Assembly (NCBI RefSeq): GCF_964194155.1
Contig: NC_135888.1
Location: forward strand, 15,004,001 to 15,068,000
Length of the DNA stretch: 64,000 nucleotides
Reading direction: 5' to 3'
Source: Cetorhinus maximus
Taxonomy: Eukaryota
The first letter of the stretch is position 1. Each line of letters begins with the position of its first letter. This document shows, in pieces, positions 7,508 through 60,665 of this stretch. A program made the position numbers and the translations under genes. The notes under the pieces were generated by a model. It had not been told where the DNA came from. It was given only the letters and a program-made list of their open reading frames with translations, and made no database searches.

Positions 7508-8244
7508 GGTGACGCCATAGTTCCTCATATCACATTTGTGAACATTTTGAGTCCCGTCAGGCTTATGGCAGTGCGAATACCCTCTGTGAGAATGCTCCTG
7601 TCATGGAGACGCGGTGGAGGCCCTAATAGCCACTCGATTGCAGGAGGATGATGACGACATCCATTAAGGACACTCCATAAATCTTCACACAGCCTCTGAG
7701 GATGTCTGACTCCTGTCTGGCTGAGGGCAGCTCGCTTGCACTCCGTGATCAGGGTCACGTCATAGAGACGCAGCCATGAAACTTTAGAAGTATCTGATGC
7801 TTTGTCCGCCTTCGACACATGAACCCTTCAGGAGCTGGAGCATAGCATCAGTGGTCACAGATGAAGAGATGGGTGCCAGTCCCTCCATAAAGGTGCTGAG
7901 GGCACACCGAGAGACTGAGAGAACTCTGTGGTGCCTGCCTATTACATTCTGGCAGCAATGACAACCGCTGCCGAGGTACAGGCATCAGTAATGTTTCCAG
8001 AAAGTGAGGGGCCAAACCATCACTTAGGTCTGAAAACTGCACAGAGCACAGGGAAGAGGCCCTGGACTGAGACACCTGCCTTTATCTTATGCAGAAAGGT
8101 TTCACATCTGAGTGACAAGAACACTGCTCATCAGAACAAGGAGCCATAGGCAGGAAGACATTCTTGGGAGTTTATTGACAATAGTGAACAGTATGTACAA
8201 GTGATTAACATCCATGCCCAGGTTGTGCAACTAATTCTCCTTAA

Positions 8245-8984
8245 GTGCACGGCCTTCACTTCCTTGCCCTCGCCCGCCACCCAGGCACGCCCTGGCGTGC
8301 CTTGTTGCCGTCCGGTGACGGAGGACCCCGTTGGGGGGGCCCTCTACGGAGGTGTCCTCCCGCTTTCCATCAGGGACCTGGGATGGAGGGTGTTGCATGC
8401 AGCAGGTCCCTATTATCGTAGGATGTGACGGTTCATAGACTCCCAAGATACCGGCCCTTTTTGCGGTCTTGTGGAGTCCGTGGACCACGTTTACGTAGAG
8501 TGTTGTAGACTGCACTCCCTTTTCAGTTATTTAAAAAACCTTTTATTACTGTTTTGTTTGCACTTCAGTCCCACGCTCCGGATTTACGAGCACCCAGTGC
8601 GGAGGGGGGCCTGGAGGGAGGAGGAACTCCTCGTGAACCTGCTCCAGGGCCTGGCCAAGTTAGCCATTAACAGGTCCAGGCAGTGGGCGATCGAGGGGGT
8701 TGTATGACCCGACTGTTTGCCCCTCTTTCGCGGTTACGTTCGCGGCTGGGTGTCCCTGGAGAGGGAGCACGCAGTGTCTGCTGGCACCGTCGAGGCCTTC
8801 CGTGCCCAGTGGGCACTGCGGGGACTGGGGTACTTTATCGACCCCTTTAATCACATTTTGGTTTAATGTTTGTAAGTTTTCTTTAAACTTTGTCTTTGGC
8901 TTTACAGCTATTCTAATTTAGGGGCTGTGTTTACTTTATCCCTCATTTTGTTAATTTAGTTTATTTGGTTGACTCTAAAGGAGT
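8245..8984 (+). mobile_element. 5'-truncated Tx1-like (L1 clade) LINE nested in the Harbinger
   Basis: DLGWRVLH...FCGLVESVDHVYVECCRL zinc-knuckle C-terminus, LAKLAINRSR; T-rich 3' UTR; 13-bp TSD TAATTCTCCTTAA at 8232 and 8985. Confidence 0.85.
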
Positions 8985-15490: not shown

Positions 15491-15742
15491 AATACCTCAG
15501 CAAGGATCTGCATGTTGCATTGAGGACTGTGGCTACAAATCTGGCAACAGCAGCCATTTAGCGTCTTTTGAAAATTCTTTTAACCCACTGGTGCAGCATT
15601 TCAAAGGATTATTCACACCATCAATAAATCGTAGTGTTACTTCTACTGGTAACTCTGGAGAAATACCAATCCTTCAACAACACCAAGAGAAGCTAAGCAA
15701 CCAACTTCAAATTGGATAATATTTTGTCTGGGTTGAACTTAC

Positions 15743-15797
15743 AGTCTCTCTTAGCGCTGACCTCCCCAGTAAAATCGTCCACAGCTCCCGACTGCTC
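15743..15797 (-). CDS. NUP188: NUP188 exon 2 (SSRELWTILLGRSALRET)
   Basis: cag|...|gtaagt boundaries, 55 nt; near identity to recalled human SSRELWTILLGRSALREL. Confidence 0.95.
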
Positions 15798-16134
15798 CTG
15801 TGAACAAATTGATACTCTTCACACATAAGCCAGAATACAAATGCTATATACTAAAGACGACATCTATTTTATCTTAACAAAAATCAAAACTATCCTTCAA
15901 TCTTACCCAAACAAATACTCACCCAATCACCAGGCAATCACTTAGTCTCAGCCTTACCGGCAACTTAATGATGAAACATGAACATTATTTCCCTGTGAAC
16001 TTACGCCCAACATGAACTGGAGTTGACATTGCCTCTCAAATTAATCTCAAATAGGGACCCTCACAGCTGTTAGACAGGCGAGCTTTTAATCTCCAGTGTG
16101 AATTGGATGGAACTATTACGCTGGAAGGTGACAC

Positions 16135-17325: not shown

Positions 17326-17326
17326 G

Positions 17327-17431
17327 CGGTTACTGGCTGGACTGTCTTACTACAAGCCCCTCGGTAATGCTGATACCTCCTTTGTACATCGCCAATAGTT
17401 GAGGTACTGTGGTATCTTAAATAAATAAATG
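17327..17431 (+). repeat. Inverted local copy of NUP188 exon 3 3' half plus start of intron 3
   Basis: Aligns to reverse complement of 14651-14765, including the identical run CTGGCTGGACTGTCTTACTACAAGCCCC. Confidence 0.92.
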
Positions 17432-20400
17432 ATGTTAAGCTCTACAAAGATCTCAAGCATATAATTTAAGCTAATACTTCAGCACTGTACTGAGGGAGAG
17501 CTGCATTGTCGGAGGTGCCATCTTTTCGATGAAGCATTAACCTGAGGCATCGGCCGGCGAAAAATCCTATGTCACTGTTTGAAGAGGAAAAGGAGTTTCA
17601 ACATTGACTTGGTCAACATTGCCCATTAAACCAACACCCCAGAGCAGAACATCAAATCATTCCTCTTTGTCAAATGAACTTTGCACTCAGAGTGAAGGAT
17701 ACTGGTCCTTGAAAACCATATCCTTCCCCCTCCCTCACCCCTTCTGTCACACACTCTCAAGTGTGATCCAGGGTGAACGTAGAATAAGGTTTGAATATTC
17801 TTCCAAAAAACTTTAACTTCAGCACCATTCCCTTCTTAATAGACATCACATTTCCAATTTAGTCTTCAGTATCAATTAATTCCAATAATTTACCCTTGTT
17901 ACATTTATTCCATTTACATTTTATATGTCAGTCCAACGTACATATTTGTTACTTCCTTCAAAAAAGTAATATAATTAAAATCACCCCTTCTCTACAATTT
18001 TACCTCTGCAATTGAGTATTTTTGATGACTACATGTTGTGCAAGTCTGTTATCCTACTTGTTGCACATGGGCATTGTTTTGCTAATAAACCAATAGGAAA
18101 GAGTTCCATTGTATTTAAATTTTCTCACTCACAAACACTAAACTCATTTATCCTGCTCAAACAATTCCATCTCAGCAAAATCAGAGCATCAGAACTCAAC
18201 TAAAGTTAAGTTTTACCTACCTGACTTAATAGAAAGCCTGAGAAAATGTTTTGTTTTTTAATTAAAACCAAGTTTAACCACTGTAAGGAGTTCATATTTG
18301 TCATCACTCGTTTAATTCTGGAATTGTCCAACTCTAATTTTAATAGATATTTTCCGATACAAAAAGCTGGAAAAAAAATCACCTGACTTTGTGACCCAGT
18401 TTTGGAATATAGGGGCATTTTCTATCTGCCATGCACACTCTAACCCAGATACAGAGTGTGTTAAAGGATGACGTGTGACATTCTACATGACCCAGCTGCC
18501 ATTAAGGGCTACTGGGAAAATTTAAGAGAATGCAGTCACTTAATAGTTAGCGGTTCCAGTCTGATGAGAAACAAAAATTCTTTCAGTTACTAGAAAATAT
18601 CTGGAATAGTTTTTAAATATTTGTCAATCTTTCCAAACACTATACTAGGGAGATGGGGAATGGAAATAAGCAGCAGCCAAAAAGTAGCAGATTTTGAATC
18701 CAATGTCTCAGTGCAAAATGAGTGGTTCTGTGGGCAAGTGACAAAATAACTACCTCTAAAACCCTTTAAACAAAGTAAAATTTACTGTTGCAAGATGTTG
18801 GTTTGAGGAGGGTTTGCCCATTTAGTTTACCCTTCAGGGCACCCACTCCACCAGATGGTGCAGCAGCGCACCATGGCTGGCAGGAAGTGATGGCAAGGCT
18901 CAGCACCATGCCCGGTATCTGCTGGACCTGGGAAGTTACAAATGTTAGAAAAGAGAGCATACCTTAACAAATGTGACAAGATGCTGATATACCCAAATAT
19001 ACCATGTCTCAAGCAGATGGCACAAATTGCACATCATAAAACGCTACCCATCAGCAATAACTTGCATATATATGGCATCCAGAATGGACTCGAGGGACCG
19101 AATGGCCTTCCAGGGCACTTCACAGGCAGATAACAGGACAAAATTAACACCAAGCAAAAGGAGGCGATATTAGGGCAGGTAATGAAAAGCTTCAGAGAGA
19201 TAAATTTTGAGGAGGATCTTAAAGAGAGTGAGAGAGACAGATGAAGAAACAAGAGAGGTTTTGGGAGAAACACCAAAGAATACACTACTTAATTTTGCAA
19301 GTTAAAATTATCCCATAAATGAATGAGTTTGTCCTCATGCATAATTTTTAAGATGGCAGTCCAGACAGTACTATTTATCACATGGCAGAGGTTAGGAAAG
19401 AAAACCATAATTAAAAAATAAAAAATGCAAAAGATGTACAATTCTCAGCATCTAAATGAAAAACAAAATGACAAGTTTAATATTTTCAAGAAAATCTCTC
19501 CACTATCTCTCCACTAATTCAAAGGCAAGTTTTCACAAAAATATTAACCGTTATTTTCTCTTCACATTCTGGTTGCAAAATATATAGGCAACACTGAATC
19601 ATCAAGTGTTTGAAAGAAATTCTAGATTCCATAACTAGATAACAATTTTACTCCATACCCACTGACCACATAAATTATTATAATCACATAGACTTCTAAC
19701 TGTAGAACTCGCCAAGTTGCTACATCATAAAAGCTCTGTATTAACAGTGCTAGCTCATGATACTTTTCTCACTGGATAAAGTGAAGGGGGTAAGGGGGTG
19801 AGGGGGCGGGTGGCAGAGATTAAAAATGCATTTCAACCTGAACAACACAGCCAATAAAAGTGAAACCATGCCTCTCACTAAAATGTAATGTTTATTCCTA
19901 CACTAAAGACTGAGCATAGCAACCTGTCATTCCCACTCATGGGTACTGTGGTGAAAATGGCACTGCACTGAGGGGCATTGAGTATCCTTAGATTCGTAAC
20001 ACACGCAGGGCCTGAGAGATGTTAGGAAGGCTGGATTTGTGGAGGTTTGCTAACATATCTGACTGCTGGCTAGATCATGTGCCATCCACATTTACTGGGA
20101 CTACTCGTATGAGCCTTGTTCGCAAGACCTTCTTTGGTAGAGAGCTGAGAATACCAGGCGCTATTTGAAGATCCTGGGTCCCAGGCGTTCCTTTCAGATC
20201 AGTGAGTGGCGGGGGGGGGGTGGTGAGAGAAAGAACAGTTTCCTGTCAGGATCCCCGTAAATTGATGTCCCTTGACGGGAAAAAATACCCGTAAAGCAAC
20301 AATTTTGGAAGTACTTGTTTGCAAACTGAGCAGGGTAAAAGATTAAAACTAATCTCCATGAAGGGCCAAAACCCCACTTTAGCGCAATTATCTGTCAGCC

Positions 20401-24483: not shown

Positions 24484-25597
24484 CACAACAGAGAACGCAA
24501 AACACAATGCACAATCAATTCTTGTATTTACGTTTATGATGGCAGGAGTTATATACTGTGTCTGCTGGAGTGGAAGATACAACAGATAGTCTACCCTCTT
24601 TGTCAATTAATTATATGTTTCCCAGTTAACTGCATCAGACAGATGGTATATAGAGCAACAGCTGAAGCCTTATTAAAAAGCCTTTATTAATTCAGCAAAA
24701 TGGTGGTATTGTTAGCACAATAATGTTAGTGATTCTGCATCAATCATTGGTTTTCAGTAGAATTTTTGCATTTAATTTGTTATTCTAAACTGGAAATGAA
24801 TTGGCTAGTGGCTCCCTTCATTCTATGTATTCTAAACTGATGGCATTAACATTTTTCTGCCTGTTTATCACTGAAATAATGGGATGTCGAAAAAACTATT
24901 GTTACTCATTGCCAGTTGACTATTGAGGTCACATAATGATGAGGATATTATGTTTTTTATCAAGGGTCTTTCTGGAGACTATGTTGTGTAAACTGGGTTC
25001 TGTCTATTCCACTCCCATAAGCTTCCCTTTAAAGCATCACCCAGGGACAGCACCAAAAACATTTGAAAATCTCACATTATTTCTGTTTGTTGGGTGGTAG
25101 GTGGGGGCGGGGGGAAGAAATGTCACCTGAGCAGGAAATTCGCATGCATATTGGTTAAAAACTAGACTGTGAGCTCAGCTTCAGACTGCACGGTGCTTAA
25201 CTGCTGATCTCCCCAATACGAAGTGAGCTGAATTAAAGACAAACATAAGCAAGCTTGGTGAATCTAACAGATTGTTAAATTTCACCCCTGTATCTGACTT
25301 ACTGACATTCCTTTTGAGAGATGCGCAAATGGATGAAAAAGCCTCTCTACAACATTTGGCACTATTATCTTATAATCTAACTGTAACTAATGCAGTCTAC
25401 GTTACAATCTCTGTTCCAGGTCTGACAGTCAGTTAGATCTACCCAGTTGCACAGTTGGAAGAAAAACCAATCAGACAAAGGGGAAATTTAACCGAATAAA
25501 TCTTGGCAAACGGAATGGAACCTCAAACACTTCCCTGGATTCTAGAATAATTAAAACTTTCTCAATTCTCTGTACGTCAGAAGAAAAATCTGCAGCT

Positions 25598-27169
25598 ATG
25601 TTGAAAAATCCTGTCTTTGTGGAGTCTTGCATTGTTTTCATCATCGTATTGTCTGTCCACGCTGTGATCTGGAACACCTTTTCCTGGTGCACACTTGCTT
25701 TGGCGATTCAGGCTTTTTATGTTCAGCACAAGTGGGACCGGCTACTGAAGTCTGGAAATGCAGTTTTTCAATATAGAACGGCCTTTAGTAGTGGCCTGCT
25801 GCCGGCCAGCGTGGTTTTGCCTCTGCTAGGAACCGTGTTAAAGGAGCAGTGGGAAACGGTCGGAAATGTACAGTTTGAACGATTCTGCATTGTGTGTTCG
25901 GCTGCGGGAATGGCCATTGCTCTGTTCATCTCATTGCTGGGTTTGGGCCTCACAAAGCCACTGCCCACCAATACCAGCGTTGTGTACGGTTTTGCAACCA
26001 GCGCCATAATATATGGTCTTAAGCACACTCTTTCTGTTTCCGAGGTCATAGAAATCCTGGAGGTGTTATTGATTTTTGTCTATCTTTCTCTCATTGTCCT
26101 TTATATTATGCCACGGAGCTTCACCCCAGGAGAAGTTATGTTGTTCTTGTCAGGTTTGAGCATAGTCACCAACCAGCTGATTAAACGTTCTTTGACTTTC
26201 GGAGATGGTGGATATGATCCACTTGCATCATTCCTCTTGGTGACTGTGGTTGGGACGGCCCTTCTGGGATTGGTTTTCACTATTTTGTACTGCTTCATGG
26301 ACTCTAAGACCTGGGCTTCATCGCTGATTTTCCATGTGACGGCAGTCATTTTTGGATTGGGAATCATGGTGCCCTGGTTCTACCGACTGACCAGGAACCA
26401 TCTTTTTGCTTGGCTTCTCAACTTCCTCACATCCACCAGAACCAGGATCTACCTACTGAGCTACTGGATCACACTGGCATTTCTTGCTTCACTCATTGTC
26501 TTTCATCAGAACAGTAAGCAATCATCTGAATCGAAAGAGTACAAAGCTTCCACAGCTATGCGGAAAAGCTTCCATATCATTATAGTAGCAACCTACGTCC
26601 CAGGCCTCATCTATGATCGTCCGTTACTCTATATTGCTGCTGTGGTTTGCTTTGCTGCGTTTGTGGTGTTGGAATATATAAGGCATTTTAAGATTAAACC
26701 ACTTGGAATGATATTGAGACCAATGCTGGCCCTGTTTCTTGATGACCGTGATAGTGGTCCTTTGATCCTGACGCACATTTACCTGCTGCTAGGACTGACC
26801 CTGCCTGTATGGCTGTTCCCCGGAGTGTTTGCCCCAAAAAGCTCTTTTCCGGGGGAGGTAGCACTAGCTCCCTATGCTGGAGTCCTGGCCGTGGGGATTG
26901 GCGACGCCATGGCCTCTGCTATTGGAAGCACAATGGGAGAAGTTAGGTGGCCTGGAACGAAAAAGACCTTTGAAGGAACAGCAACCTCTGTCTTTGCCCA
27001 GATCATTGCTGTTGCTTTGATTCTCATCTTTGATAAAACAGTGAGCCTAAATGGCAGCTACACCTGGATTATGGGATCTATTGTTCTAGTCTCCCTGCTA
27101 GAAGCTTACACTGATCAAATAGACAATCTTCTATTGCCTTTGTATCTTTTCCTTATGCTGATGGTTTGA
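25598..27169 (+). CDS. DOLK: Dolichol kinase, 523 aa, single coding exon
   Basis: Multi-TM ORF; [50 protein letters not shown] motifs; synteny with NUP188 and PHYHD1. Confidence 0.98.
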
Positions 27170-27849: not shown

Positions 27850-28112
27850 AAATAAACTACTGCAGGTGCTGGAAATCTGAGACAAAAACCGAAATTGCTG
27901 GAAACACTCAGCAAGTCAGACAACAACTGTAATGAAAGGCAAAATGGTTAATATTTAAGGATTAATCTTATAAGTGCTCTGATAAAGGGTAATTAATGGC
28001 TGAAGGGTTAACCTTTACCTTGCTTTATAAATATTGCCTGACTTGCTGAGTTCTTCCAGCATTTTCTGTTTTTAATTCAGATTTCCCGCATCCGCAGTAT
28101 TTTGCTTTTGTC
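27850..28112. mobile_element. Inverted pair of Penelope-derived 3'-end fragments downstream of DOLK
   Basis: TGCTGGAAATCTGA...GCTGGAAACACTCAGCAAGTCAG and its reverse complement; related relics at 27560-27620, 51010-51125 and 62455-62590. Confidence 0.7.
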
Positions 28113-33810: not shown

Positions 33811-34230
33811 TTGGACATTTTATCACTTCGTTTTGCACTGTTTTCCCCTCAGTTTTGTACATTTCTCACAAAATGTATACTTGCTTTAAATATACTTCTT
33901 CATTCATTTTAATTTATATTCTCTAATTTGACATTCCTGGTTGAATTTGAAGTGATATTCAGGGACTTCCGAAATTGCGGGTGGGACCAGAAATTCTCAC
34001 CCAAAGTCAACGGACCTTTTGCTGGTCCATCAAATTTTCCATCTCACCTTCGACGATTCCCACAGCGGGTGGGACCAGAAAATCCCATAGTCACATATGA
34101 ACACTTAGCAATTTAACTTGAAATTTCTCCCTCAAGCTATTGTAACAGGTCATCAATTTATTTTAAAAACCCAGCATTTATAAAGTTCTTGTGGAACTTC
34201 AAAATTTAATAACTTCCCAGGATGAAAAAA

Positions 34231-34460
34231 CAGTAAAAACTGGGAAATAAGAATACTGGTCCAAACTGATCTTGTATACCTTAAAATGAAACACCAGTAA
34301 AAACTGGGAAATAAGAATACTGGTCCAAACTGATCTTGTATAGCTTAAAATGGAACACCAGTAAAAACTGGGAAATAAGAATACTGGTCCAAATTGGTCT
34401 TGTATACCTTAAAATGGAACACCAGTAAGAACTGGGAAATAAGAACACTGGTCCAAACTG
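34231..34460. repeat. Minisatellite, 64-bp unit, about 3.6 copies
   Basis: CAGTAAAAACTGGGAAATAAGAATACTGGTCCAAACTG... starts at 34231, 34295, 34359, 34423. Confidence 0.95.
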
Positions 34461-38581: not shown

Positions 38582-39170
38582 GTGGAATTGGATGAATTGC
38601 TCTGAGAGAGCCGGCACAGGCACAATGGGCCAAATTGCCTCCTGCCGTGCTGCAACCATTCTATGATTCTATGAACGTAAATCAGGGGGAGGAAACAGTC
38701 CCTCCTGGTTTGTACAGCTCAAGTGCTCACTACGTAAACTTACTGAATTATCAGCAGAACCACCAAGGGAACTTCCAGGCAAAATATTCTATTCTCAGGC
38801 TGCCCCTAACTTGCAGCTCCAAACCATAAAGCACTGACAAATCAAAACACACATTCGTCTTTTGCTATTTTTAAGGAAAGCATGATAATATTGCATACCT
38901 ATTAATTTATAAACGACACTGAAACCAAAACATATTACATAGTACCGTGGAAACAATAAATTGAAAGGTGCATCTATATTAAATGTTTTGCTTCAGGATT
39001 TATCTGGTCTTCAATAAGAACATAAGAAATAGGAGCAGAAATAGGCCATTTGGTCCCATGAGTATGCTCTGCCATTCAAAAAAAGTCATGGCTGATCCGA
39101 TTGTGGCTTTAATTCTTATTTCCTGCCTACCCCCATAACCTTTGACTCTCTTGTAGATCAAAAATCTGTT
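38582..39170. repeat. About 590-bp local direct duplication of 42108-42686
   Basis: Collinear CR1 tail, unique spacer and second CR1 tail; includes a 51-nt identical block. Confidence 0.9.
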
Positions 39171-39217: not shown

Positions 39218-39954
39218 CTGTAGAAGAAAAAATGTTGTTAGCATTTTGTATAAGCTTACAATGCAGCAGATTGCTCATAAAGTACAAAAACATCCCTAAA
39301 ATATCCTTAGACAAATTATTCAAGTCAGTTAGTACACGATAGTTAACTTGGGATTAAATTGATGAAGTTCAGTAACATGGCTGATAATCTTAGCATAGGT
39401 GGTCTTGTGGTGTGGTGGTAGTGCCCTACCACTGGGCCAGAAGCTCTGGGTTCAAGTCCCATGCCAGGACTAGTCGGTCACAGAAGGAATGTTCATGATG
39501 TGATTCAATGGGCTGATAATTAGCCTGGGAATCCTTCCACCACCACTATTCCCCAAAGGGAAAAAAATGTGTGTGAAGATATGCTAAAAGAAGAATCTTA
39601 GCATATCCATGGCAGGCATGTCAAAGAATGTTACAAAAAGATCAATAGTTCCATCAGTGTTAAATGCTGGAGCGGGTTCAGGTTACAATCCATTTATTGC
39701 TCTGCAACTGAGCTGCTACTGCAAAATTAAGAGACTAATTGACAGAAACAAAACATTAAAAAAAGAGGTAAGGTACTCAAAAGCTTTTGCTCTGTAGCTT
39801 ATAAACATAAATTAAATAGAGGAGAAAGACCATTCACCTTCTCCTTGTTTATCCACCCAGAACAAATTTATAGCTTCCCCCTACTATTTCTTAGATTTTT
39901 CCATGCTTTTGCCTCCAGTATTTTACTAGGAAGTCCATTTCAATAATTGGAGGG

Positions 39955-41669: not shown

Positions 41670-42200
41670 TTGTGTCCAATTCTGGGCACCGCTTTATGAA
41701 GGATGAGAAGGCATTGGAGAGGGTGCAGAAAATATTTACAGGGGTGGTTCCAGGAATAAGGAACTTAATTTACAAGGATAGGTTGGAGAAGCTGGGGCTG
41801 TTCTCCTTAGTGAAGAGAAGATTAAGCTTTGATGGAGGTATTCAAAATCACGAGGGGCCTGGACAGAGTAGACAAGGAGAAACTGTTCCCATTGGTGGAA
41901 GGATCGAGAGCCAGAAGACACCGATTTAAGGTGATTGGCAGAAGAAGCAACGGGCGACATGAGGAATTTTTTTTTTACACAACGAGCGATTAGGATCTGG
42001 AATATACTGCCTGAGAGTGTGATGCTGGCAGATTCAATCACGGCCTTTAATAGAGATAATTATCTGAAGAGGAAATAATTATAGGACTATGGAGAAAAGG
42101 AGGGTGAGTGGAATTAGGTGAATTGCTCTTACAGAGAGCCAGCACAGACATGATGGGCCGAATTACTCCTTCTGTGCTGCAGCCATTCTATGATTCTATG
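41670..42200 (+). mobile_element. CR1 LINE 3' fragment
   Basis: ALERVQK.FT...RLEKLGLFSL; ATTCTATGATTCTATG tail. Confidence 0.88.
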
Positions 42201-42529
42201 AACACAACTTGGGAGTAGAACAGGGTCTGTCCTGGTATGTACGGCTCAGGTGCTCACTGCATAAGCTTATCGAGCTATTGGCAGAGCCACCAAGGGAAGT
42301 TCTAGGCAAATTGTCTGTTCTCAGGCTGTCTCTAACCTGCAGCTCCAAGCCATTAAATGCTGGAAAATCATGTGCCTTTTACTATATTTAAAGAAGGCAT
42401 GATAATATTGCATACCTTTTAATTTAAAAACTGCATTGAAATCAAAACATATACATCGTACAGTGGAAACAATAAATTGAAAGGTGCATCTATATTAAAT
42501 GTTTTGCTTCAGGTTTTATCGCGTCTTTC

Positions 42530-43130
42530 ATAAGAACATAAGAAATAGGATCAGGAGTAGGCCATTTGGCCCCATGAGTCTGCTCTGCCATTCAAAAAGG
42601 CCATGGCTGATCTGATTGTGGCCTTACCCCCACTTTCCTGCCTAACCTCCACAACCTTTGACTTTCCTGTCGATCAAAAATTTGTCTAACTCAGCCTTGA
42701 ATATTTTCAATGACCCAGCCTCTACTGCTCCCTGGGGTAGAGAATTCCAAAGATTAACGACCCTCTGAGAGAAAGAATTCCTCCTCATCTCCGTATTAAA
42801 TGGGAGACCTCTTATTTTGAAACTGTGTTCCCTAGTTCTAGGTTCCCCGCAAGGTAAACGTCCTTTCAGCATCAACCCTATCCTTAGAACTTAAATGTTT
42901 CAAGAAGATCTCCTCTCATTCTTCTGAGCTCTTATTTTGTGCAGTCACCTTTTATATAGCACCTTATCGCATGGCTTTTGGAAATTCAAATACATTATAT
43001 CTCCTGGTTCCCCTTTGTCCATCCTGCTTGTTACATCCTCAAACAGCTCCAATAAATTTGTCAAACACAATTTCCCTTTCATAAAGCCATGTTGACTCTG
43101 CTTGATTGTATTATGATTTTCTAATGTCCT
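42530..43130 (-). mobile_element. CR1 LINE fragments
   Basis: RTREHSFKIRG...FSQRVVNLWNSLPQ on minus; CATAAGAACATAAGAAATAGG tail. Confidence 0.85.
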
Positions 43131-48952: not shown

Positions 48953-49084
48953 ATTGCTGAAAAAAAGAGACATCCTGTCAAAGCTTTTCATCTTGTACCC
49001 ATCAGGACAGATTCGCTATTTTCAATAGTTTCCTGATGAGTGCAAGATGAAAAGCTTTGACAGCATGTCTCTTTCTTCAGTAAT
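48953..49084. repeat. Palindromic element made of two inverted hammerhead-bearing ends
   Basis: Arms 48953-49007 and 49031-49084; each has CTGATG(A/G)-GT(G/A)CAAGAT-GAAA-AGCTTT-GAC. Confidence 0.85.
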
Positions 49085-50432: not shown

Positions 50433-51171
50433 TACACTAGGAGGAGCATTTGCACATTTGAGTGGGGCAGTGGTAAGGGATCTACAATTTAAGGCAGCAA
50501 CTCCCTGGGGTTAAGGTGGGATTAGCTAGGGTTTTTGCTCCAATTTGTTATTCAATAATCCCTATTAGATGGCAAGTGGAGACAGCTATGATGCCCACTG
50601 GCACTATATTCCATTGTAGGGTAGAACCTGCCGGAATGGAGAAGCAAAATACACTTGAAAAATACACTTTCACGAGCTGTGCCTTGTCTCACAGCGATTA
50701 AAGCACTGAACTCTAGCTGAGAAAACAGGCTAGGAACCTGCTCTTAGAATAATGCCATCTCTGAAGTCAAAATTTAAATACCATTCGGCGGTAACAATGG
50801 ATGCTGTCCCTCCTTCCATCGATAATTTAAAATTGAGGTTTTCATGTGATGCAGGTGGATATAACATGGGGGTTAGTTGTAATGTGGATTCAATGTAACA
50901 ATGTGGTTTAAAACTGGCATAATGTCAATTTAATTTGATCTAGTGTGGTTTAAGTGTGGATTTGAGGCGATATAATGTGGTTTAAATGTGGTAATGATGT
51001 AGTTTTGACACAAAAGCAAAATGCTGCACATACTGGAAAGCACAGAGTGTGCTGGATATACTCAGCAGGGCTGACAGCATCAGTGGAGAGAGGAAGAGAG
51101 TTAACTTTTCAGATCCATGATCTTTCACCCCCCCCAGGTGACCACGAGGACTGTGGGTTTAATTTTTAAAA

Positions 51172-51500
51172 AATCATTCATGGGATGTGGGCTTCGTTGG
51201 CTGGGCCCAGCATTTATTGCCCATCCCTAATTGCCCCTTGAGAAGGTGGTGGTGAGCTGCCTTCTTGAACCGCTGCAGGGAGGTGAGGTGTCAGCTGTGG
51301 CTCAGTTCATAGCACCCTCGCCTTTGAATCAGAGGGTTGTGGGTTCATGTCCCACTCCTGGAAAACCAAGAACTGTGATTGTACTCGAAAGAGTTGCAAT
51401 CTGTGACTGTTGATAACTCGAAAGAGTTTGAACCGCTGCAGTCCCTGTGGTGTGGGTACACGCACAGCGCTGTTAGGGAGGGAGATTTTGACCCAGGGAC
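51172..51500 (-). mobile_element. 3' tail fragment of the same LINE family, interrupted by a short SINE
   Basis: ATTCATGGGATGTGGGC...CTTCTTGAACCGCTGCAG...GTGGGTACAC; split at a 14-bp duplication. Confidence 0.85.
51279..51427 (+). mobile_element. 149-bp tRNA-headed mini-SINE with 14-bp TSD and no poly(A)
   Basis: A-box-like TGGCTCAGTTCA, B-box-like GGGTTCATGTCCC; tail has ACTCGAAAGAGT twice; TSD TTGAACCGCTGCAG at 51265 and 51428. Confidence 0.85.
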
Positions 51501-51673
51501 TGTTATACCAAATCTGCTATAATGTGGCTATCCAATATTTACGCTATGTGTCCCGCGGTATAGAATCCAAACACATTTGCTGGTAACAATGTAACAAAGC
51601 GAAGGTAACACAAGCTTCCCTGGAACTTTCCAAAGTCGCCGAATCAAATTCGGAGTGTGTGACTGTCACTCAC

Positions 51674-51700
51674 CGCTGTGCTGAGTTCGTCCGTGACCAT
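51674..51700 (-). CDS. PHYHD1: PHYHD1 coding exon 1 (MVTDELSTA)
   Basis: ACAACATGG Kozak context, 27 nt, GCG|GTGAGT donor, phase 0 fits exon 2; CpG-rich surroundings. Confidence 0.75.
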
Positions 51701-52313: not shown

Positions 52314-52986
52314 AAAGGGAAGTAAAAATGTGATGAAATTTACACTGTTTAAGGGGAGTGGAGCAGGTGAAGTAGACTGAAAATAGGGTAAAAGGTGAGG
52401 CTATAACAATGAATAAAAATGAAAATAGATAAAAAGTAAGTGGATAAAAAAATAAAAATGGATATAGAAAGAAGGGGGTGAGGATGGAGGAGAGAGTTCA
52501 TGATCTGAAACTGTTGAACTCAGAAGGCTGAAAGTACCGGAAGATGAGATGCTGTTCCTCCAGTTTGCGTTGAGCTTCACTGGAACATTGCAGCAGGCCA
52601 AGGACGGACATGTGGGCATGAAAGCAGGGTGGTGTGTTGAAATGGCAAGCGACAGGAAGGTCTGGGTCATGCTTGCAGACAGACCAAAGACGTTCCGCAA
52701 AGCAGTCACTTGGTCTGAATTTGGTATCTCCAGTGTAGAGGAGACCACATTGGGAGCAGCGAATGCAGGTTAAATTGAAGGAGGTGCAAGTGAAATGCTG
52801 CTTCACCTGAAAGGAGTGCTTGGGCCCTTGGTTGGTGAGGAGAGGGGAAGTAAAGGGGCAAGTGTTACACCTTCTGTGGTTGCATGGGAAGGTGCCGTGG
52901 GAGGGGGTTGAGGTGTAGGGGGTGATGGAGGAGTGAGGAGTGGACCAGGGTGTTTCAGAGGAAATGGTCCCTACGAAATGCTGACA

Positions 52987-53071
52987 GGGGGGTGGGGGGT
53001 GGGGGGGTGGGGGGGGGTGGGGGGGTGGGGGGGTGGGGGGGGTGGGGGGGTGGGGGGGGGGGGTGGGGGGG
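52987..53071 (+). repeat. (G)nT G-rich tract inside the Penelope ORF
   Basis: About 85 nt of G runs separated by single T, flanked by direct repeat TGCTGACAGG. Confidence 0.9.
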
Positions 53072-55187
53072 TGCTGACAGGAAGATGTGTTTGGTGGTGG
53101 CATCATGCTGGAGTTGGCAGAAATGGTGGAGGATGATCCTTTGAATGTGGAGGCTGGTGGGGTGAAAAGTGAGGACAAGGGGGGCCCTGTCATGGTTCTG
53201 GGAGGGAGAGGAAGGTGTGAGGGCGGATGCGCGGGAGATGGGCCGGACACGGTTGAGGGCTCTGTCAACCACAGTGGGTGGAAAACCTTGGTTAAGGAAG
53301 AAGGAAGACATGTCAGAAGCGCCATTTTGGAAAGTGGCATCATCAGAACAGATGCGATGGAGGCGAAGGAACTGAGAGAATGGGATGGAGTCCTTCCAGG
53401 AAGCAGGGCATGAGGAGCTATAGTCAAGGTAGCTGTAGGAGTCAGTGGACATGTAATGAATATTGGTGGACAGTCTATCATCAGAAATTGAGACAGAGAG
53501 GTTAAGGAAGGGAAGGGAAGTGTCGGAGATGGAGCATGTGAAGGTGATGGAGGGGTGGAAATTGGAAGCAAAATTGGTCAATTTTCTAGGTCCAGATGAA
53601 AGCATGAAGTGGCACCAAAACAGTCATTGATGTACCGAAAAAAGAGTTGTGGGAGGGGGCCCGAGTAGAACTGGAACAAGGAGCGTTCCACATACCCCAT
53701 AAAGACACAGGCATAACTGGGGCCCATGCGGGTACCCATAGCCACACCTTTTATTTGGAGGAAGTGAGGCAAGTTTAAGGAGACATTGTTCAGTGAGAGA
53801 ACAAGTTCAGCCAGATGGAGGAGAGCGGTGGTGGATGGGGATTGTTCCGGCCTCTGTACAAGGAAAAAGCGGAGAGCCCTCAGACTATCCTAATGGGGGA
53901 TGGAGGTGTGGAGGGATTAGATGTCAATGGTGAAGAGGGGATGGTTAGGGCCAGGGAACTGGAAATTGTTGATATGACGTAGGGCATCAGAAGAATCGTG
54001 GATGAAGGTGGGAAGAGACTGGATAAGGGGAGAGAGAACAGAGTCAAGATAGGAAGAAATGAGTTCCATGGGGCAGGAACAGATTGACACAATCGGTGTA
54101 CCGGGACAGTCCTGTTTGTGGATTTTGGGGAGGAGGTAGAAGCGGGCTGCCCGGCATTGGGAGACTATGAGGTTGGAAGCTGTGGAGGGAAGATCTCAGA
54201 GGAGATGAGGTCAGTAACAGTCCTGGAAACAATGGCTTGATGTTCGGTGGCGGGGTCATGGTCCAGGGGGAGGTAGGAGGAAGTGTCTGAGAGTTGGCGC
54301 TCAGCCTCTGCGAGTTAGAGGTCAGTACTCCAGATAACAACAGGACCACCCTTGTTGGCAGGTTTGATGACAAAGTCAGGGTTGGACCCGAGAGAACGGA
54401 GTGCGGCAAGTTCAGAAGGAGACAGGTTAGAGTTGGTGAGAGGAGCAGAGAAATTGAGATGGCTGATGTCATGTTGACAGTTCTCAATGGAAAGATTAAG
54501 AGTAGGTAAGAGGCCAGAGGGAGGGGTCCAGATGGACGGAGAATACTGGAGACGGGTGAAAGGATCCATTGAACAGGGGGAGCCTCCTGCCCAAAGAAGT
54601 GAGCATAGAAACGAAGGCAGCAGAAGAAGAGTTCAGCATCATGCAGAGATCGAAATTCATTGAGGAGGGGGCGTAAGGGTATGAAACTGAGTCCTTTGCT
54701 GAGTACTGAATGTTCAGCATCAGAGAGGGGAAGGTCAGGGGGTATGGTGAATACACAGCAAGGGCTGGGATTAGAAGACGGGATGGGGTCAGGGGGATGG
54801 GAAGGGGTGGAAGGTCCTGGATGAGCGTGGTATCAATGAGTTGTTGGAGCTTGCGTTCCTTAGCACCTGAAAGAAAGGGACAAAGTTTCTTGTTAAGGCG
54901 TCGGATGAGACGAAGAATAAAATGAAACTGGGGACAAGGACAGCTTTGAGATAGGGTGAGATAGGGTGGAGGGAGAGGTCGAGTGTGTTCATATGGCGGC
55001 GCATGGCACTGAGTATGGATCTCAGGATGCGGCGAGAACAGCAGTCCAAGGAGCGTTGTATGTCCTGGAGATACCTGTAATCCTGTGTGGGTTCAAAACA
55101 TGAGGGATGGAACTTCAGTTGGAATCCACGTGGGGTAAGTCAGAGATGGACACAGTCACTGAGGAAGGAAATACGGCTGCGAAAGCG

Positions 55188-55353
55188 AGTTTTGGAAAAC
55201 ATCTTGTCAAACACCAGGAGGGAAATGGAAAGCAATGAAGGTGAACAGGGCAAAAGAGACAAATGGAAATCCTGTCAGAAATCTCTTTTGCCCTGTTCCC
55301 CTCCATTGCTTTCCATTTCCCAGCTGGTGTTTGACAAGGTGTTTACCAAAACT
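55188..55353. repeat. Inverted repeat (72-bp arms) at the Penelope 5' end
   Basis: 55188-55259 vs revcomp 55282-55353, 6 mismatches by hand count. Confidence 0.92.
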
Positions 55354-55602: not shown

Positions 55603-58017
55603 TTAGATCTGACCACCACCCATCTTTTCCCGTATTTCTAAAGGAAGTGACTCAACAACATAGTGTTCTATCACAAGTCCACTAAGCCTCAGCATTGGGC
55701 ATTGCCCTATTTCCACAGGGAGTTTTTCCAAGAGGTTTCCTTGAAGTTCCAGCTGAGATAGTTGGATGAGCTTTGCAATCTTCCCACTGACGGATGAGAT
55801 TAAGTTATTGCTTAGCTTCAGAGTCATGAGCTTGATACATTTGAAAAGCTGATCTGGTAGAGTGTCTATTTTATTGTAACCCAAATCCAAATAATACAGG
55901 TTTTTGAGGTTCCCAACATCTATTGGAATTACAGAAATGTTGTTGCTGTGTATGTCCAAATAATGCAGTTTATCAATAGTGAAAAGGACTTTTGGTAAAA
56001 CCTCAATCTGGTTGTTTGATAAGTAAAGATACTCAAGCTTCTTGATTGAATTAATAGTTGAAGGGATGGTCTTGATTATGTTGAACCAGAACTTCAAACA
56101 GGTTAAGTTTTGCAGATATTGCAAGTTGGAAATTTCTTCAATTTTGGTAAGATTGTTACCTTTAAGGTCCAAGACATGAAGTTTGGATAAAGCATAAGTG
56201 GCACTTGGGATTTTATCCAGTTCACAGTTGTGAAGTTCAATTTGAGTCAGATTTACCATTTTCTTTAAGATACTCAGGCTCGAGAGCTTGGTCTTATCAT
56301 TATGAATGCAAAGTTTGATCAAGTGGAATGCAACGTCGATGATAGTGGAGGGTATTTTAGAAAGACTTGTTTTTAGATAAAGGACTTTCAGAGAGCGAAG
56401 ACCCTTCATGGTTTCCAGTTCCAGAGCTTTTTTCTCAATGGCCAGCATTCCAGTTAGGTACAGCTCTTTCAGCTGGATCAGTTTGTAGATCCAATCGGGG
56501 ATTTCATCACGGCTCACATATTTAACTCCCACTTTCTTCAGTTGATTTCTCAGCCACATCAAAGCTGATGGTGTAACTTCGGTCACACAGTGTGAGAGCC
56601 AGATTTCTTCCAAGTGCTCAAGTTGGGTTATTTTGTTAGATATTTTAACATTGCTACAAAGCTCCAGCCTTAAGACCTGTAGGTCAGTAACTTCATAGAC
56701 AGATTCAGGAATTCCTGATAGCATGAAGAGGTACAACTCAAGCTGATCCTTCTTAGTTTTTTTTACATGTTGCTTCACCTTCTCCACAGTCCAATCATTA
56801 TTTAAACTTAATAATTTTAATTTTTGTTCACTCACTTCTGAGAGGAAGACTGTAAGACGTTTGCAATACAGAGTGTCATACTGATCAATCAAATGCAACA
56901 AGAAGGCAAAATCATTTCTTCCATCAGGGATATCACCAAACAGGCTTTCGCCTCGTTTCTCAAAGGAGTATATTTTCAGAGGTTTTCTGAAAACCCAACA
57001 TATTGTGTGGATGCCGAGTATCCAATAGATAATCACCAAACCCAGATACAGTAGGGCCAATTTCCCGATGAAACGAGCAGTGCTATAAGTACAATCAAAA
57101 GTCTTGTAAAAAACCAATTTTAGTGCATTAGGTTCACATAAATTATTAAAGTCGACAACATAAATATAGGCTGGAAAGTAACCAATAATAATTAAACAAT
57201 GTATTGTTTTGAACAATGTTTGGCCAGCATATAATTTATAGATTGTATCTTTCTCTTCAACATGGAATCTGAATTTCCTTACTTTCTCAAACAAAGCTTT
57301 GGCTTGCTCTGCATCCTTCTTGTCCATGGTTGAGGCAGGTACTGTCACGTTTGAGTGAATACGTGTGGGAAGTTTAATAGTTGATGTATCTCCTATAGTA
57401 CTGATGGTCTCAGTGTCATTTTCAGTGGTCTTTGGTGATGCCAAGGCTTCTTCCTGTTCACTGGCATCTACACAGATTGCTGTAGATAGTGCCTTGGATG
57501 TCCATGGTGACTGAAAACACTTTTGAAGGATGTCAAGAAATTGTTGCAATTTGGAGCTTGTTTTAGGATATGTGAAACAGAAGTTACTGCAGGTAATCAG
57601 GACAACTGTGTGGAATAAAATTAGATAAGAGAAGAACCTAGTAAACCAGGGAATTTGAGTATAACACATTTGATTGATATACCAGTACTGCCAAACGTAT
57701 AGCTTTGTAACCATCCCTTGGCGGACAGAAGGAAATGTATCTGGATTCATAAGTACTTCTGGATTGTCACTGATATCAGACATTCCTGGAGTATCTTGCA
57801 TGGGTGCACTAATCTCACTGTGTGCCCTTCCATTATTTTTGGGATGTGGCAAACAGAAAGTCTCATCCATGTAAAGCTGAATGCTGCAGCCAAAGATAGC
57901 CAACAACAACATAATAATAGTCAGGTAATCCATGAAGGTGTCCCACCAAGGTTTGAAGACCTTGTAGGCAGGTTGCTTATTGTCTTCCAAAATTGAAATA
58001 TTGCTGATCGAAAACAT
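55603..58017 (-). CDS. LRRC8-family volume-regulated anion channel subunit, 804 aa, divergent LRRC8D-like paralog; single coding exon
   Basis: KPWWD, INQMCY, PWT, EQAKALFEKV, NDFAF, DQYD motifs, four TM segments and C-terminal LRRs; acceptor tttattttcag|GT ATG TTT defines the start at 58017 (the 55 extra residues of the listed ORF are intron/SINE). Confidence 0.95.
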   Translation of the reverse strand: MFSISNISILEDNKQPAYKVFKPWWDTFMDYLTIIMLLLAIFGCSIQLYMDETFCLPHPKNNGRAHSEISAPMQDTPGMSDISDNPEVLMNPDTFPSVRQGMVTKLYVWQYWYINQMCYTQIPWFTRFFSYLILFHTVVLITCSNFCFTYPKTSSKLQQFLDILQKCFQSPWTSKALSTAICVDASEQEEALASPKTTENDTETISTIGDTSTIKLPTRIHSNVTVPASTMDKKDAEQAKALFEKVRKFRFHVEEKDTIYKLYAGQTLFKTIHCLIIIGYFPAYIYVVDFNNLCEPNALKLVFYKTFDCTYSTARFIGKLALLYLGLVIIYWILGIHTICWVFRKPLKIYSFEKRGESLFGDIPDGRNDFAFLLHLIDQYDTLYCKRLTVFLSEVSEQKLKLLSLNNDWTVEKVKQHVKKTKKDQLELYLFMLSGIPESVYEVTDLQVLRLELCSNVKISNKITQLEHLEEIWLSHCVTEVTPSALMWLRNQLKKVGVKYVSRDEIPDWIYKLIQLKELYLTGMLAIEKKALELETMKGLRSLKVLYLKTSLSKIPSTIIDVAFHLIKLCIHNDKTKLSSLSILKKMVNLTQIELHNCELDKIPSATYALSKLHVLDLKGNNLTKIEEISNLQYLQNLTCLKFWFNIIKTIPSTINSIKKLEYLYLSNNQIEVLPKVLFTIDKLHYLDIHSNNISVIPIDVGNLKNLYYLDLGYNKIDTLPDQLFKCIKLMTLKLSNNLISSVSGKIAKLIQLSQLELQGNLLEKLPVEIGQCPMLRLSGLVIEHYVVESLPLEIREKMGGGQI

Positions 58018-58084
58018 ACCTGAAAATAAATGCAAAAATTTAAAGTGATATTTGAAACTTACATTTTGTAGACACTTAGGGGAA

Positions 58085-60665
58085 GGGTTGCATAGTGTTA
58101 ATGTTACTGGACCAGTAATCCCGAGGCCCAGACACTTGAGTTCAAATCCCACCAACATGGCAGCTGGGGAATTTAAATTCAATTAATGAATAAACGTGGA
58201 ACTTAAAAGCTGGTCTCAATAATGAGGATCATGAAATGACTGGGATTTCATAAAACTGATCTGGCTCACTAGTGTCCTTCAGGGGAGAAAATCTCCCATC
58301 CTTACCCGGTCTAGCCTATACGTGACCCACAGCAATGTGGTTGACTGCCCTCTGAAATAGTCTAGCAAGCCACTCAGTGACATCAAACTGCTACAGAAAA
58401 GTTAAATAAGAATAAAACCAGACAGATCATCCTGTGTCGGCCTAGGCACTTAAAGACAAACTCAGACACAGCCCAGTTGAGCCTGGAATATCCGCCCCAC
58501 TAACCTCTAGGGACTTGTGCCACAATTGGGAGAGCTGTCCCACAGATTAGGCAAGCAATATCCTGATATAATCACACTCACCAAATCACACTTTAGAGCC
58601 AATGTCCCAGACTCCTCCAACATTATACCCACTAGAGGTGGCATCACAGTGATATATAGTCAGGAGGAGACCTTAACAATGACTCTGGACCTTATGAATT
58701 CTCATGACATCAGGTCAAACATGGGCAGGAAAACATCCTGCTGATTACCACTTATCACCCTCACTCAGTTGATGAATCAGTACTCATCTATGCTGAACAC
58801 CACATGGAGAAAGCAAGGGCAATGAATGTACTCTGAGTGAGGGATTTCAATGACTTATCACCAAGACTGGCTTGGTAGTACCACATCTAACTGAGCTGGC
58901 TGAATCTTGAAGCACATATTTGGGACTGGGCCTTTGGCAGGTGATGGGCAAACCAACTAGAAGGAAAATCTACTTGACTTCATCCTCACCAATCTACCTG
59001 TCACAGATGCATCTATCCATGACAGAAATGTTAGGAGTGACCACCACTCAGGCCCCTTTAAGTAAAGATCTTTCCTCACTCTAAGGACACCCTCCATTCT
59101 GTTATGACACTACCACTGTACTATATGGAATAGATTCAGAAAAGATTTGGCAGTTCAAAACTGGACATCCAAGAGGTGCTGTTTCCTGTAAAACAATCTG
59201 TTACCTCATGGCTCAGCATGGCCCTCACTCTACCATCACTGTCAAGCCAGTGGACCAACTCCGGTTCAATGAGGAATGTAGGAGACCATGTCAGGAGCAG
59301 CACCCTGCATAATTAAAAATGAGATGCCAACCTAGTGAAGTTACAACATAGGACTACAGGCATGCTAAATAGTGAAAGTAGCATTCTATAGACAGAGTTA
59401 AGCGATCCACAACCAATAAGATAGATTGAAGCTCTGCAGTCTTGTCACATCTAGTTGTGAATGGTGGTTAACAATTAAATATCTAACTGCAGGAGGAAGC
59501 TCCACAAATTTTTCCATTCTCAATGATGGGGGAGCCTAGCACATCAGTGCAAAAGACAAAGCTGAAGCATTTGTCATCATCTTCAGCAAGAAGTATCGAT
59601 TGGATGATCCATCTCGGCCTCTTTTTGAAGTCCCCAGCATCACTGATGCCAATCTTCAGCCAATTCAATTCACTCCACACTATGTCAACAAATGGCTGAA
59701 GCTTCCAGATACCACAAAGGCTTTGGGCCCTGACAACATGACAGCAGTAGTACTAAAGACTTGTCCTCCAGAACTAGCTGCATCCCTAGCCAAGCTGTTC
59801 CAGTACAGCTACAACACTGGTATCTATACAACAATGTGGAAAATTGCCCAGGTATGTCCTGTCCACAAAAAGCAGGACAAGTCCAATTCAGCCAATGATC
59901 AGCTCAAGAGTCTACTCTCAATCATCAGAAAAGTGATGGAAGGTGTCATTGACAATTAGCACTTACTCAGCAAAAACCTACTCACCAATGCTCAGTTTGG
60001 ATACAGCCAGGTCCACTTGGCTCCAGAGCTCTTCAGAGCCTTTGTCCAAGCATGGTCAAAACAACTGAATTCCAGAGGTGGTTGACGATGTCTGCCCTTG
60101 TCATCAAGGCAGCATTTGACCAGGGTGGCATCAAGGAGCCCTAGCAAAATTGAGATCAATGGAAGTCAGGAGAAACTTTCCACTGAGTGCACTCATACCT
60201 AGCATATAGGAAGATGGTTGTGGTTGTTGGAGGCCAATAATCTTAATCCCAGGACATTGCTGCAGGAGTTCCTCAGGGTAGTGTCCTAGGCCCAAACATC
60301 TTCAGCTACTTCATCAAAGACTTTCCCTCCATCATAAGGTCAGAAGTGATGATCTATGCTGATAATTGCATGGTGTTTTACACCATTCAGAACTCCTCAG
60401 ATACTGAAGCAATCCATGTCTCCATGCTGCAAGGCCTGGTTTTCATTAATAAGTGGAAGTAACATACACAAAATGCAAGGCAATGACAATCTCCAACAAG
60501 AGAGAATCTAGCCATTTCCTCTTTACATTTAATGGCATTTCCATTGCTGAATCCCCGCCATCAATGTCCTTTGGGTCACCATTGACCAGACACTTAACTG
60601 GAACAGTCATAAAAATGGCTGTGACTACAAGAGCAGATCAAAGACTGGAAATTCTGTGGTGACTA
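58085..60665 (+). mobile_element. Degenerate CR1/L2-group LINE with a tRNA-like 5' head, 3'-truncated
   Basis: B-box GAGTTCAAATCCC at 58138; APE remnants (PDIITLTKS, GDFN, LLDFILTN); RT remnants (KALGPDN, WKIAQVCPVHKK, GVPQGSVLGP, YADN). Confidence 0.85.

What the first reader, a model, noticed from the sequence alone, without database searches (positions are those of the whole stretch)
51265..51441. Candidate Tx1-mobilised mini-SINE sharing a 3' terminal ACTC-loop-GAGT hairpin
Seen: a 149-bp insert (51279-51427) bounded by a perfect 14-bp TSD. It consists of a tRNA-like Pol III head resembling the Deu-SINE heads in this window plus a short tail ending ACTCGAAAGAGT (the motif occurs twice, at about 51384 and 51416), with no poly(A) or simple-repeat tail. 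The Tx1-like LINE at 8245-8984 also has no poly(A), has a 13-bp TSD and ends in ACTCTAAAGGAGT, the same ACTC...GAGT stem abutting the TSD. Known: SINEs borrow the 3' recognition signal of their partner LINE. Inference: a SINE/LINE pair in which an L1-clade Tx1 recognises a terminal stem-loop rather than poly(A), and a Deu-SINE head switched partner from an L2-type to a Tx1-type tail.
Basis: partly seen in the sequence, partly recalled or inferred. Interest (0 to 1): 0.7.

Follow-up and report, generated by a model that had tools for sequence, protein, structure and literature searches.

The report
Short shark SINE with hairpin end
This is one copy of a young, abundant, very short jumping element in a shark-type genome that ends in a small RNA hairpin instead of a poly(A) tail, and it may be copied by a Tx1-type retrotransposon that ends in a similar hairpin, though that partnership rests on a single Tx1 copy.

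Summary
A 149-bp insert with a perfect 14-bp TSD interrupts a LINE 3' fragment whose three paralogues in the window lack it. It is not a one-off: in public sequence data the tail is about 3,700-7,900 times deeper than the unique flank. The 5' end is near 51285, and head-to-tail junction contigs end at the same GAGT followed by T. So it is a multi-copy tRNA-type SINE family of about 143 bp without poly(A).

The Tx1 link is plausible but unproven. The Tx1 copy also ends in hairpin-then-TSD, and the two ends match over 17-19 nt when anchored at the TSD (15 of 12,000 random sites score as well). But unanchored similarity is at chance level, the loops differ, a second Tx1 relative cannot encode the exact stem, and no further Tx1 ends could be fetched, so covariation is untested. 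Direct descent from a Deu-SINE head is only weakly supported. Tx1-mobilised SINEs are known (crocodilian SINEU, with poly(A)). A poly(A)-less hairpin-ended pair would be a new variant.

The parts
51265..51278 (+). left target-site duplication (14 bp, begins with TT)
   Evidence: identical to 51428-51441; present once in three empty paralogues
51279..51284 (+). copy-specific 5' extension, a near-duplication of the first five bases of the head
   Evidence: depth at 51280 is about 117 times the unique flank, against more than 53,000 times for the head; a 5-base-shorter form is seen in 3 contigs
51285..51358 (+). tRNA-type head: A-box-like word at 51298-51306; B-box-like word at 51343-51351 with one non-canonical base (51348); no T4 run
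   Evidence: Not detected as tRNA by ARAGORN or Rfam. The box definitions are recalled.
51359..51401 (+). tail part 1, including a long imperfect hairpin at 51377-51401 (10 pairs, GAAA loop, -9.6 kcal/mol)
   Evidence: the whole insert folds better than 200 of 200 shuffles (z -3.07)
51400..51427 (+). tail part 2, a diverged duplicate of part 1, ending in the terminal 4-bp hairpin at 51416-51427
   Evidence: unit alignment; pairing probability 0.74-0.97 in the last 25-40 nt; 9 junction rows end here
51428..51441 (+). right target-site duplication
51160..51490 (-). host: 3' fragment of a very abundant CR1-group LINE with an A-rich end (possibly Zenon-type; not tested), interrupted by the insert in antisense
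   Evidence: paralogues at 78-82% identity; very high depth; A-rich ends
8245..8984 (+). candidate partner: 5'-truncated, decayed Tx1-clade LINE (ORF2 C-terminus with two stops, 8246-8863; T-rich 3' UTR; terminal hairpin 8972-8984; no poly(A))
   Evidence: 33% identity, E 3e-12, to P0157, whose cluster holds a medaka protein named 'transposon TX1 uncharacterized 149 kDa protein'
8232..8244 (+). left 13-bp TSD of the Tx1 copy (right copy 8985-8997), begins with T

Best explanation
A young, multi-copy, tRNA-headed SINE of about 143 bp that retroposes by target-primed reverse transcription using a Tx1-clade (L1-superfamily) LINE of this shark lineage, not necessarily the family at 8245-8984. SHOWN: multi-copy family, fixed 3' end at a 4-bp hairpin, long TSD, no poly(A), head-to-tail dimers. 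INFERRED: (1) transcription from the internal tRNA-type promoter, ending in a few U just after the hairpin; (2) the LINE ORF2 protein recognises the terminal hairpin rather than poly(A); (3) the terminal U residues pair with A residues at the nicked target, which is why the base after the hairpin is T; (4) dimers arise by template jumping (short T-rich spacers) or by re-insertion at the same site (TSD-length spacers).
For: Tail depth is 3,708-7,905 times the unique flank in run X5. In X1 and X11 the tail is covered (21-31k and 35-78) while the unique flanks on both sides have zero depth. 10 of the 12 junction rows shown are tail-to-head; 9 of them end at the terminal GAGT with T next, 8 with TT. 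Both elements have a 13-14-bp TSD starting with T and a hairpin abutting it. The 3'-anchored score of 18 was reached by 15 of 12,000 random sites, and its best position in the Tx1 zone is exactly the TSD boundary, 8984 (0 of 1,500 with a coarser method). The window's CR1 copies end in simple repeats and the host-type LINE in A-rich tails; SacSINE1-type SINEs carry an L2 tail (PMC5499810). Precedent: Tx1-Mar mobilises SINEU, with tandem copies sandwiching a TSD (PMC4494074).
Against: Only one, decayed, Tx1 end was available. Unanchored, the tail scores 20 against the Tx1 3' UTR, below the 90th percentile of the null (21), and two CR1 ends score 22. Scanning 60-nt zones, CR1 ends reach 16-17 on the anchored score. 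The loops differ (GAAA against a 5-nt or 3-nt loop), and in stringent L2 LINEs the loop carries the specificity (PMC4176376). In the Tx1 context the hairpin is weak: pairing 0.26-0.46 in the last 40 nt, and absent from the lowest-energy fold. A second Tx1 relative (P0003) reads through its 3' end, and 0 of 6,912 back-translations contain ACTC-N3-6-GAGT. No loose-end row pointing to an abundant LINE sharing the tail appears among the 21 rows shown of 638. The B-box-like word is non-canonical. In X5, heads are about 7-16 times deeper than tails, which is unexplained.
Confidence: 0.55

Rival explanations
1. A real SINE family, but mobilised by a LINE of another clade (for example RTE, or a restriction-like-endonuclease LINE) not represented in this window. 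The resemblance to the Tx1 end is coincidence or convergence.
For: T-ending SINEs whose TSDs start with T are the described signature of RTE-related SINEs (PMC6007223). The tail has no significant unanchored similarity to the Tx1 UTR. The loops differ.
Against: There is no T-stretch about 10 nt upstream of this TSD (one site only). RTE partners in that paper end in microsatellites. The anchored Tx1 match has p about 1e-3.
Confidence: 0.22
2. Tx1 or L1 machinery moves it in relaxed fashion, priming on terminal U residues. The hairpin is a by-product (termination or stability signal), not a recognition element.
For: T follows the end in 9 of 9 terminal junction rows. The Tx1 hairpin is weak. SINEU-1 shares no tail with any LINE.
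Against: The hairpin motif is kept twice in the tail with no common variant listed other than a 1-base deletion at 51387, and the Tx1 copy ends in a similar stem.
Confidence: 0.12
3. The tail comes from a CR1-type 3' end and the element is moved by a CR1-group LINE.
For: The 8-nt word at 51373-51380 equals the terminal repeat unit of the window's CR1 copy near 40.65 kb (minus strand). CR1 ends score 22 unanchored and 16-17 anchored.
Against: Those scores are within chance for the search sizes used. The element ends in a hairpin, not in repeats. None of the CR1 ends examined coincides with a perfect direct repeat of 12 bp or more that brackets the copy (these copies are old).
Confidence: 0.08
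4. A one-off template-switch chimera, not a family.
For: Only one copy lies in the 64-kb window. The tool warns that summed contig depth is not a copy number.
Against: Depth thousands of times the flank; the head-tail junction is present in X11 contigs with 1-2 differences; many distinct dimer junctions.
Confidence: 0.03

Closest known systems
SINEU with Tx1-Mar LINEs of crocodilians (Kojima 2015, PMC4494074; abstract and whole Results section read, supplements not available)
   Same: A vertebrate SINE assigned to Tx1-clade machinery; tandem copies separated by a TSD; 5' extensions.
   Different: SINEU heads come from U1/U2 snRNA, all groups have poly(A), the link rests on a shared target (Mariner-N4_AMi), and SINEU-1 shares no tail with any LINE. 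Here the head is tRNA-type, there is no poly(A), no shared target is seen, and the link is a short terminal hairpin.
SacSINE1 / LmeSINE1 Deu-SINEs and CmiSINEs (PMC5499810, passages read; PMC3747384, passages and table read)
   Same: tRNA-type head in cartilaginous fish; tail switching by recombination is described for CmiSINEs.
   Different: They carry a Deu or CORE body and an L2 tail. The insert has neither, and its head is only about 69% identical to the window's Deu head.
Stringent L1-clade SINE/LINE pairs: maize and sorghum SINEs with monocot L1, and Chlamydomonas SINEX-3_CR with L1-1_CR (PMC3472496, PMC3747384; passages read)
   Same: An L1-clade LINE and a SINE sharing a structured 3' end.
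   Different: Plants and algae, a 45-80-nt shared region with covariation shown; the Chlamydomonas pair ends in poly(A). Here: vertebrate, under 20 nt shared, no poly(A), covariation untested.
T-ending RTE-related SINEs: Au-like, Sauria, AFROSINE (PMC6007223; passages read)
   Same: The TSD starts with T, matching a T-rich RNA end.
   Different: They have an RTE-derived tail and an upstream T-stretch, neither of which is seen here.
Stringent L2 LINEs ZfL2-1/ZfL2-2 and UnaL2 (PMC4176376; abstract and Discussion read)
   Same: The mechanistic model: ORF2 binds a 3' stem-loop.
   Different: L2 clade. The loop is the specificity determinant there, whereas the SINE and Tx1 loops here differ.

Membership tests
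tRNA-derived SINE (SINE2) | short, non-coding, multi-copy interspersed element | tested here: met
   143-149 bp; tail depth thousands of times the unique flank; interspersion inferred from low depth of this flank junction, copies not mapped
tRNA-derived SINE (SINE2) | tRNA-related head with A and B boxes | tested here: inconclusive
   aligns to other SINE heads above shuffles; A-box-like and B-box-like words present, but the strict patterns fail; no tRNA hit
tRNA-derived SINE (SINE2) | retroposition hallmarks (TSD, fixed 3' end) | tested here: met
   14-bp TSD with empty paralogues; 9 junction rows share the 3' end
tRNA-derived SINE (SINE2) | RNA polymerase III transcription | not testable with these tools
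   needs small-RNA data or an assay
Deu-SINE (SacSINE1 type) | Deu central domain | tested here: not met
   the window's Deu bodies do not hit the insert, and similarity ends after the head
Deu-SINE (SacSINE1 type) | L2-derived tail | tested here: not met
   tail scores 15 and 20 against the two Deu tails, within the null
SINEU | U1/U2 snRNA-derived head | tested here: not met
   no U1 or U2 match in Rfam at E up to 10
SINEU | 3' poly(A) tail | tested here: not met
Tx1-clade LINE (element 8245-8984) | ORF2 C-terminus related to Tx1-family proteins | tested here: met
   67% to P0001 (RVT_1 and zf-RVT, both below the curated cut-offs) and 33%, E 3e-12, to P0157 in a TX1-named cluster; no RT tree was possible because the copy is 5'-truncated
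Stringent SINE/LINE pair | SINE tail homologous to the partner LINE 3' end | tested here: inconclusive
   anchored p about 1e-3; unanchored at chance level
Stringent SINE/LINE pair | stem-loop conserved with covariation across LINE copies or families | not testable with these tools
   no genome held; no Tx1 loci found; P0003 is incompatible with the exact stem
RTE-related T-ending SINEs | TSD starts with T about 10 nt downstream of a T-stretch | tested here: inconclusive
   TSD starts with T, but no upstream T-stretch at the single site readable

The most novel reading that the evidence does not exclude
A vertebrate Tx1 (L1-superfamily) lineage is poly(A)-independent and stringent: its ORF2 binds a 4-bp terminal hairpin and primes on one or two U residues. 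A 143-nt tRNA-SINE family exploits this with a tail of only about 20 functional nucleotides, giving a minimal natural substrate for asking whether relaxed poly(A) recognition is a derived state in vertebrate L1-clade elements.
Probability: 0.35. Interest if true: 0.65.

Novelty: new variant of a known kind. Interest (0 to 1): 0.42.

Why it matters
L1-clade elements are the textbook relaxed, poly(A)-reading LINEs. Stringent L1-clade SINE/LINE pairs are described from monocots and a green alga, and Ohshima (PMC3472496) proposed that stringency is ancestral. A poly(A)-less vertebrate Tx1 with a hairpin-ended SINE partner would extend that to vertebrates and supply a very short test substrate. Even without the Tx1 link, it is an abundant young shark SINE family that my searches did not find described (8 paper searches answered). 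Repbase and Dfam could not be screened, so it may already be catalogued there.

Tried and rejected
No assembly is held for the window, so copies could not be counted or mapped directly. Exact tail patterns gave 0 hits in viral, metagenome and prokaryote genome contigs. Tx1 protein scans found no confirmed loci: 88, 201, 584 and 85 pattern matches, none confirmed. A search for other proteins reading through the Tx1 3' UTR returned only P0003 itself. Rfam and ARAGORN gave nothing meaningful on the insert. No RNA holder was listed. Run X15 (raw reads, another organism) has a few host-LINE reads and none on the insert, which is uninformative on the partner. The degenerate motif (2 hits, 0.01 expected) was designed from the two sequences themselves, so its chance figure is inflated and is not relied on. 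Target-site specificity for the host LINE site was rejected: depth at 51280 is about 0.2% of head depth. A target shared between the SINE and the Tx1 copy is not seen. Supplements of PMC4494074, which may show Tx1 3' junctions, could not be read. Earlier-scan look-ups by sequence and place returned nothing.

Full report
Observation. 51279-51427 is 149 bp between identical 14-mers at 51265-51278 and 51428-51441. The 12-nt hairpin motif lies at 51383-51394 and 51416-51427. The LINE at 8245-8984 has a 13-bp TSD and ends in an ACTC-5nt-GAGT stem. The insert interrupts, in antisense, the 3' fragment of an abundant CR1-group LINE. Three paralogues of that fragment in the window (78-82% identical) carry the target word once, so the 14-mer is a true duplication.

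Anatomy. The head (about 51285-51358) aligns with the two decayed Deu-type SINE heads in the window (scores 53 and 44; 20 shuffles reached at most 37). It has 50 identities in 72 columns with the better one, and scores 39 with an unrelated tRNA-type SINE at 39.4 kb. It has an A-box-like and a B-box-like word; the latter departs from the recalled consensus at 51348, and neither ARAGORN nor Rfam calls a tRNA. There is no T4 run until 51486. The 69-nt tail is two diverged units. The first forms a 10-pair hairpin (-9.6 kcal/mol), the second ends in a 4-bp hairpin with a GAAA loop that pairs with probability 0.74-0.97. The whole insert folds better than 200 of 200 shuffles.

Is it a family? No assembly was available, so I used public runs. 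14 of 19 listed runs, from 7 studies, hold words of the insert, 12 of them half or more; one may be the source. Four were laid on 50950-51700 at 85% likeness. In X5, a contig identical to the unique left flank over 239 bases has depth 65.5, while the two tail bins have 517,795 and 242,877, that is 7,905 and 3,708 times more, and the head bins 53,000-58,000 times more. The tool warns that summed depth is not a copy number, and only about 65% of X5 was read, so I take this as 'thousands of copies at least'. In X1 and X11, read whole, the unique flanks have zero depth while head and tail are covered at similar levels (X1 head 33-43k, tail 21-31k; X11 head 23-29, tail 35-78). X11 contigs span the head-tail junction with 1-2 differences. 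The only majority difference from the window copy in the insert is at 51359, so the family is young. Depth at 51280 is only 117 times the flank, which places the 5' end near 51285 and argues against targeting of this host site. X15 has no read on the insert.

The 3' end. Of 212 junction rows with intervening letters, 12 are shown, and 10 of these join a tail to a head at 51284-51287. Nine leave the tail at the terminal GAGT with T next (8 with TT); one leaves at the first hairpin. Counting those T's, 6 of the 9 spacers are 4-8 nt (5 begin with three or four T) and 3 are 11-17 nt. I read the short T-rich spacers as template jumps onto an RNA ending in oligo(U), and the long ones as re-insertion at the same site, as described for tandem SINEU-3. 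Both readings are inference, and the 200 hidden rows could differ.

The Tx1 link. The LINE is a 5'-truncated Tx1-clade ORF2 end with two stops: 67% identical to P0001, which has RVT_1 and zf-RVT hits below the curated cut-offs, and 33% identical (E 3e-12) to P0157, in a cluster with a TX1-named medaka protein. It is the only such fragment in the window. For: both elements end hairpin-then-TSD, both TSDs are 13-14 bp and start with T, and an alignment anchored at the 3' end scores 18, reached by 15 of 12,000 random sites (a count that may include sites in the insert itself), with its best position exactly at the TSD boundary. Against: unanchored, the tail scores 20 on the Tx1 UTR, below the 90th percentile of the null, while two CR1 ends score 22. 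With 60 end positions to choose from, two CR1 zones reach 16-17 anchored. The loops differ, and in stringent L2 LINEs the loop sets specificity. The Tx1 hairpin pairs at only 0.26-0.46 in its last 40 nt, 0.65-0.79 in its last 25 nt. One relative, P0003, is a frameshifted product that runs through its 3' UTR. It keeps the residues on either side of the stem position (YLVD-x-K in both), but 0 of 6,912 back-translations contain the exact stem and 1,104 could form some 4-bp stem. That copy may be decayed or shorter, so it neither confirms nor refutes. No further Tx1 DNA could be fetched, so consensus ends and covariation remain untested.

The Deu switch. The insert has no Deu body and no L2-type tail. 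In one search, of four positions where both window Deu heads differ from the insert (51324, 51328, 51334, 51348), only 51334 shows the Deu letter at 5% or more (40% in X5, 9% in X1). The abundant head pool is therefore mostly its own lineage, related to but not the same as the window's Deu heads. Why X5 heads are 7-16 times deeper than tails is unexplained: older elements with another tail, or consensus tail contigs in the unread part of the run.

Mechanism. Most likely (0.55): a short RNA ending in hairpin plus a few U is bound by a Tx1-clade ORF2, which nicks the target, primes by U:A pairing and makes a 13-17-bp duplication. Rivals: another LINE clade such as RTE (0.22; T-initial TSDs are its described signature), relaxed U-priming with an incidental hairpin (0.12), a CR1-derived tail (0.08; one 8-nt word matches a CR1 terminal repeat in the window), or a one-off chimera (0.03).

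Comparison with what is known. It works like a stringent SINE/LINE pair. It is not a Deu-SINE or a SINEU by their defining features. Tx1-mobilised SINEs are known in crocodilians but have snRNA heads and poly(A) (PMC4494074; abstract and Results read; supplements unavailable). Stringent L1-clade pairs are known in monocots and Chlamydomonas (PMC3472496, PMC3747384; passages). The shark SINEs named in the papers read are SacSINE1, CmiSINEs and HE1, with L2 or CR1 partners (passages). PMC13343379 (abstract and passages) describes poly(A)-tailed Zenon LINEs in elasmobranchs, a candidate identity for the host repeat, not tested. Eight paper searches listed no paper on a hairpin-ended Tx1-partnered shark SINE; the library lacks most subscription papers, and Repbase and Dfam were not available.

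Verdict. A real, abundant, young short SINE family with an unusual fixed hairpin end. The Tx1 partnership and hairpin recognition are plausible but rest on one LINE copy. New variant of a known kind; interest 0.42, or 0.65 if the stringent poly(A)-less Tx1 reading (probability 0.35) holds.

Noticed in passing
window 6479-7132 (+), 10203-10859 (-), around 8245-8984: The Tx1 copy lies between a DDE_Tnp_4 nuclease frame and a convergent Myb/SANT frame, that is, apparently inside a Harbinger-like transposon. PMC4494074 reports that crocodilian Tx1-9_AMi prefers Harbinger elements, so this could be a target preference.
   Followed up: partly
window 39398-39593: A second tRNA-headed SINE-like insert of about 196 bp with a perfect 12-bp TSD (39386-39397 / 39594-39605) and an A-rich end; a different family from the Deu-type copies.
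   Followed up: partly
run X5 laid on window 51285-51427: Many distinct head-to-tail dimer junctions of the SINE, with two spacer classes (4-8 nt T-rich, and 11-17 nt); one junction leaves the tail at the first hairpin, which hints at a shorter one-hairpin form.
   Followed up: partly
run X5 laid on window 51288-51358: Heads are 7-16 times deeper than tails and show CpG-type changes (28% and 13% at 51319-51320), which suggests a larger, older family with the same head and an unknown continuation.
   Followed up: no
window 27854-28103, 48961-49077, 55188-55353, 14644-17438: Long inverted-repeat elements (MITE-like or hairpin-like).
   Followed up: no
window 52498-55092 (-): Decayed reverse-transcriptase-like frames with a C-terminal nuclease-like region; resembles a Penelope element by recall (no Pfam hit for the one frame scanned).
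   Followed up: no
window 25391-27169 and 55603-58182: Two long intact single-exon frames (592 and 859 aa) that look like dolichol kinase and an LRRC8-family protein; the names are recalled, not searched.
   Followed up: no
window 34222-34460; 38639-39082 and 42166-42598: A 64-bp tandem repeat, and a local duplication at about 3.5 kb spacing.
   Followed up: no
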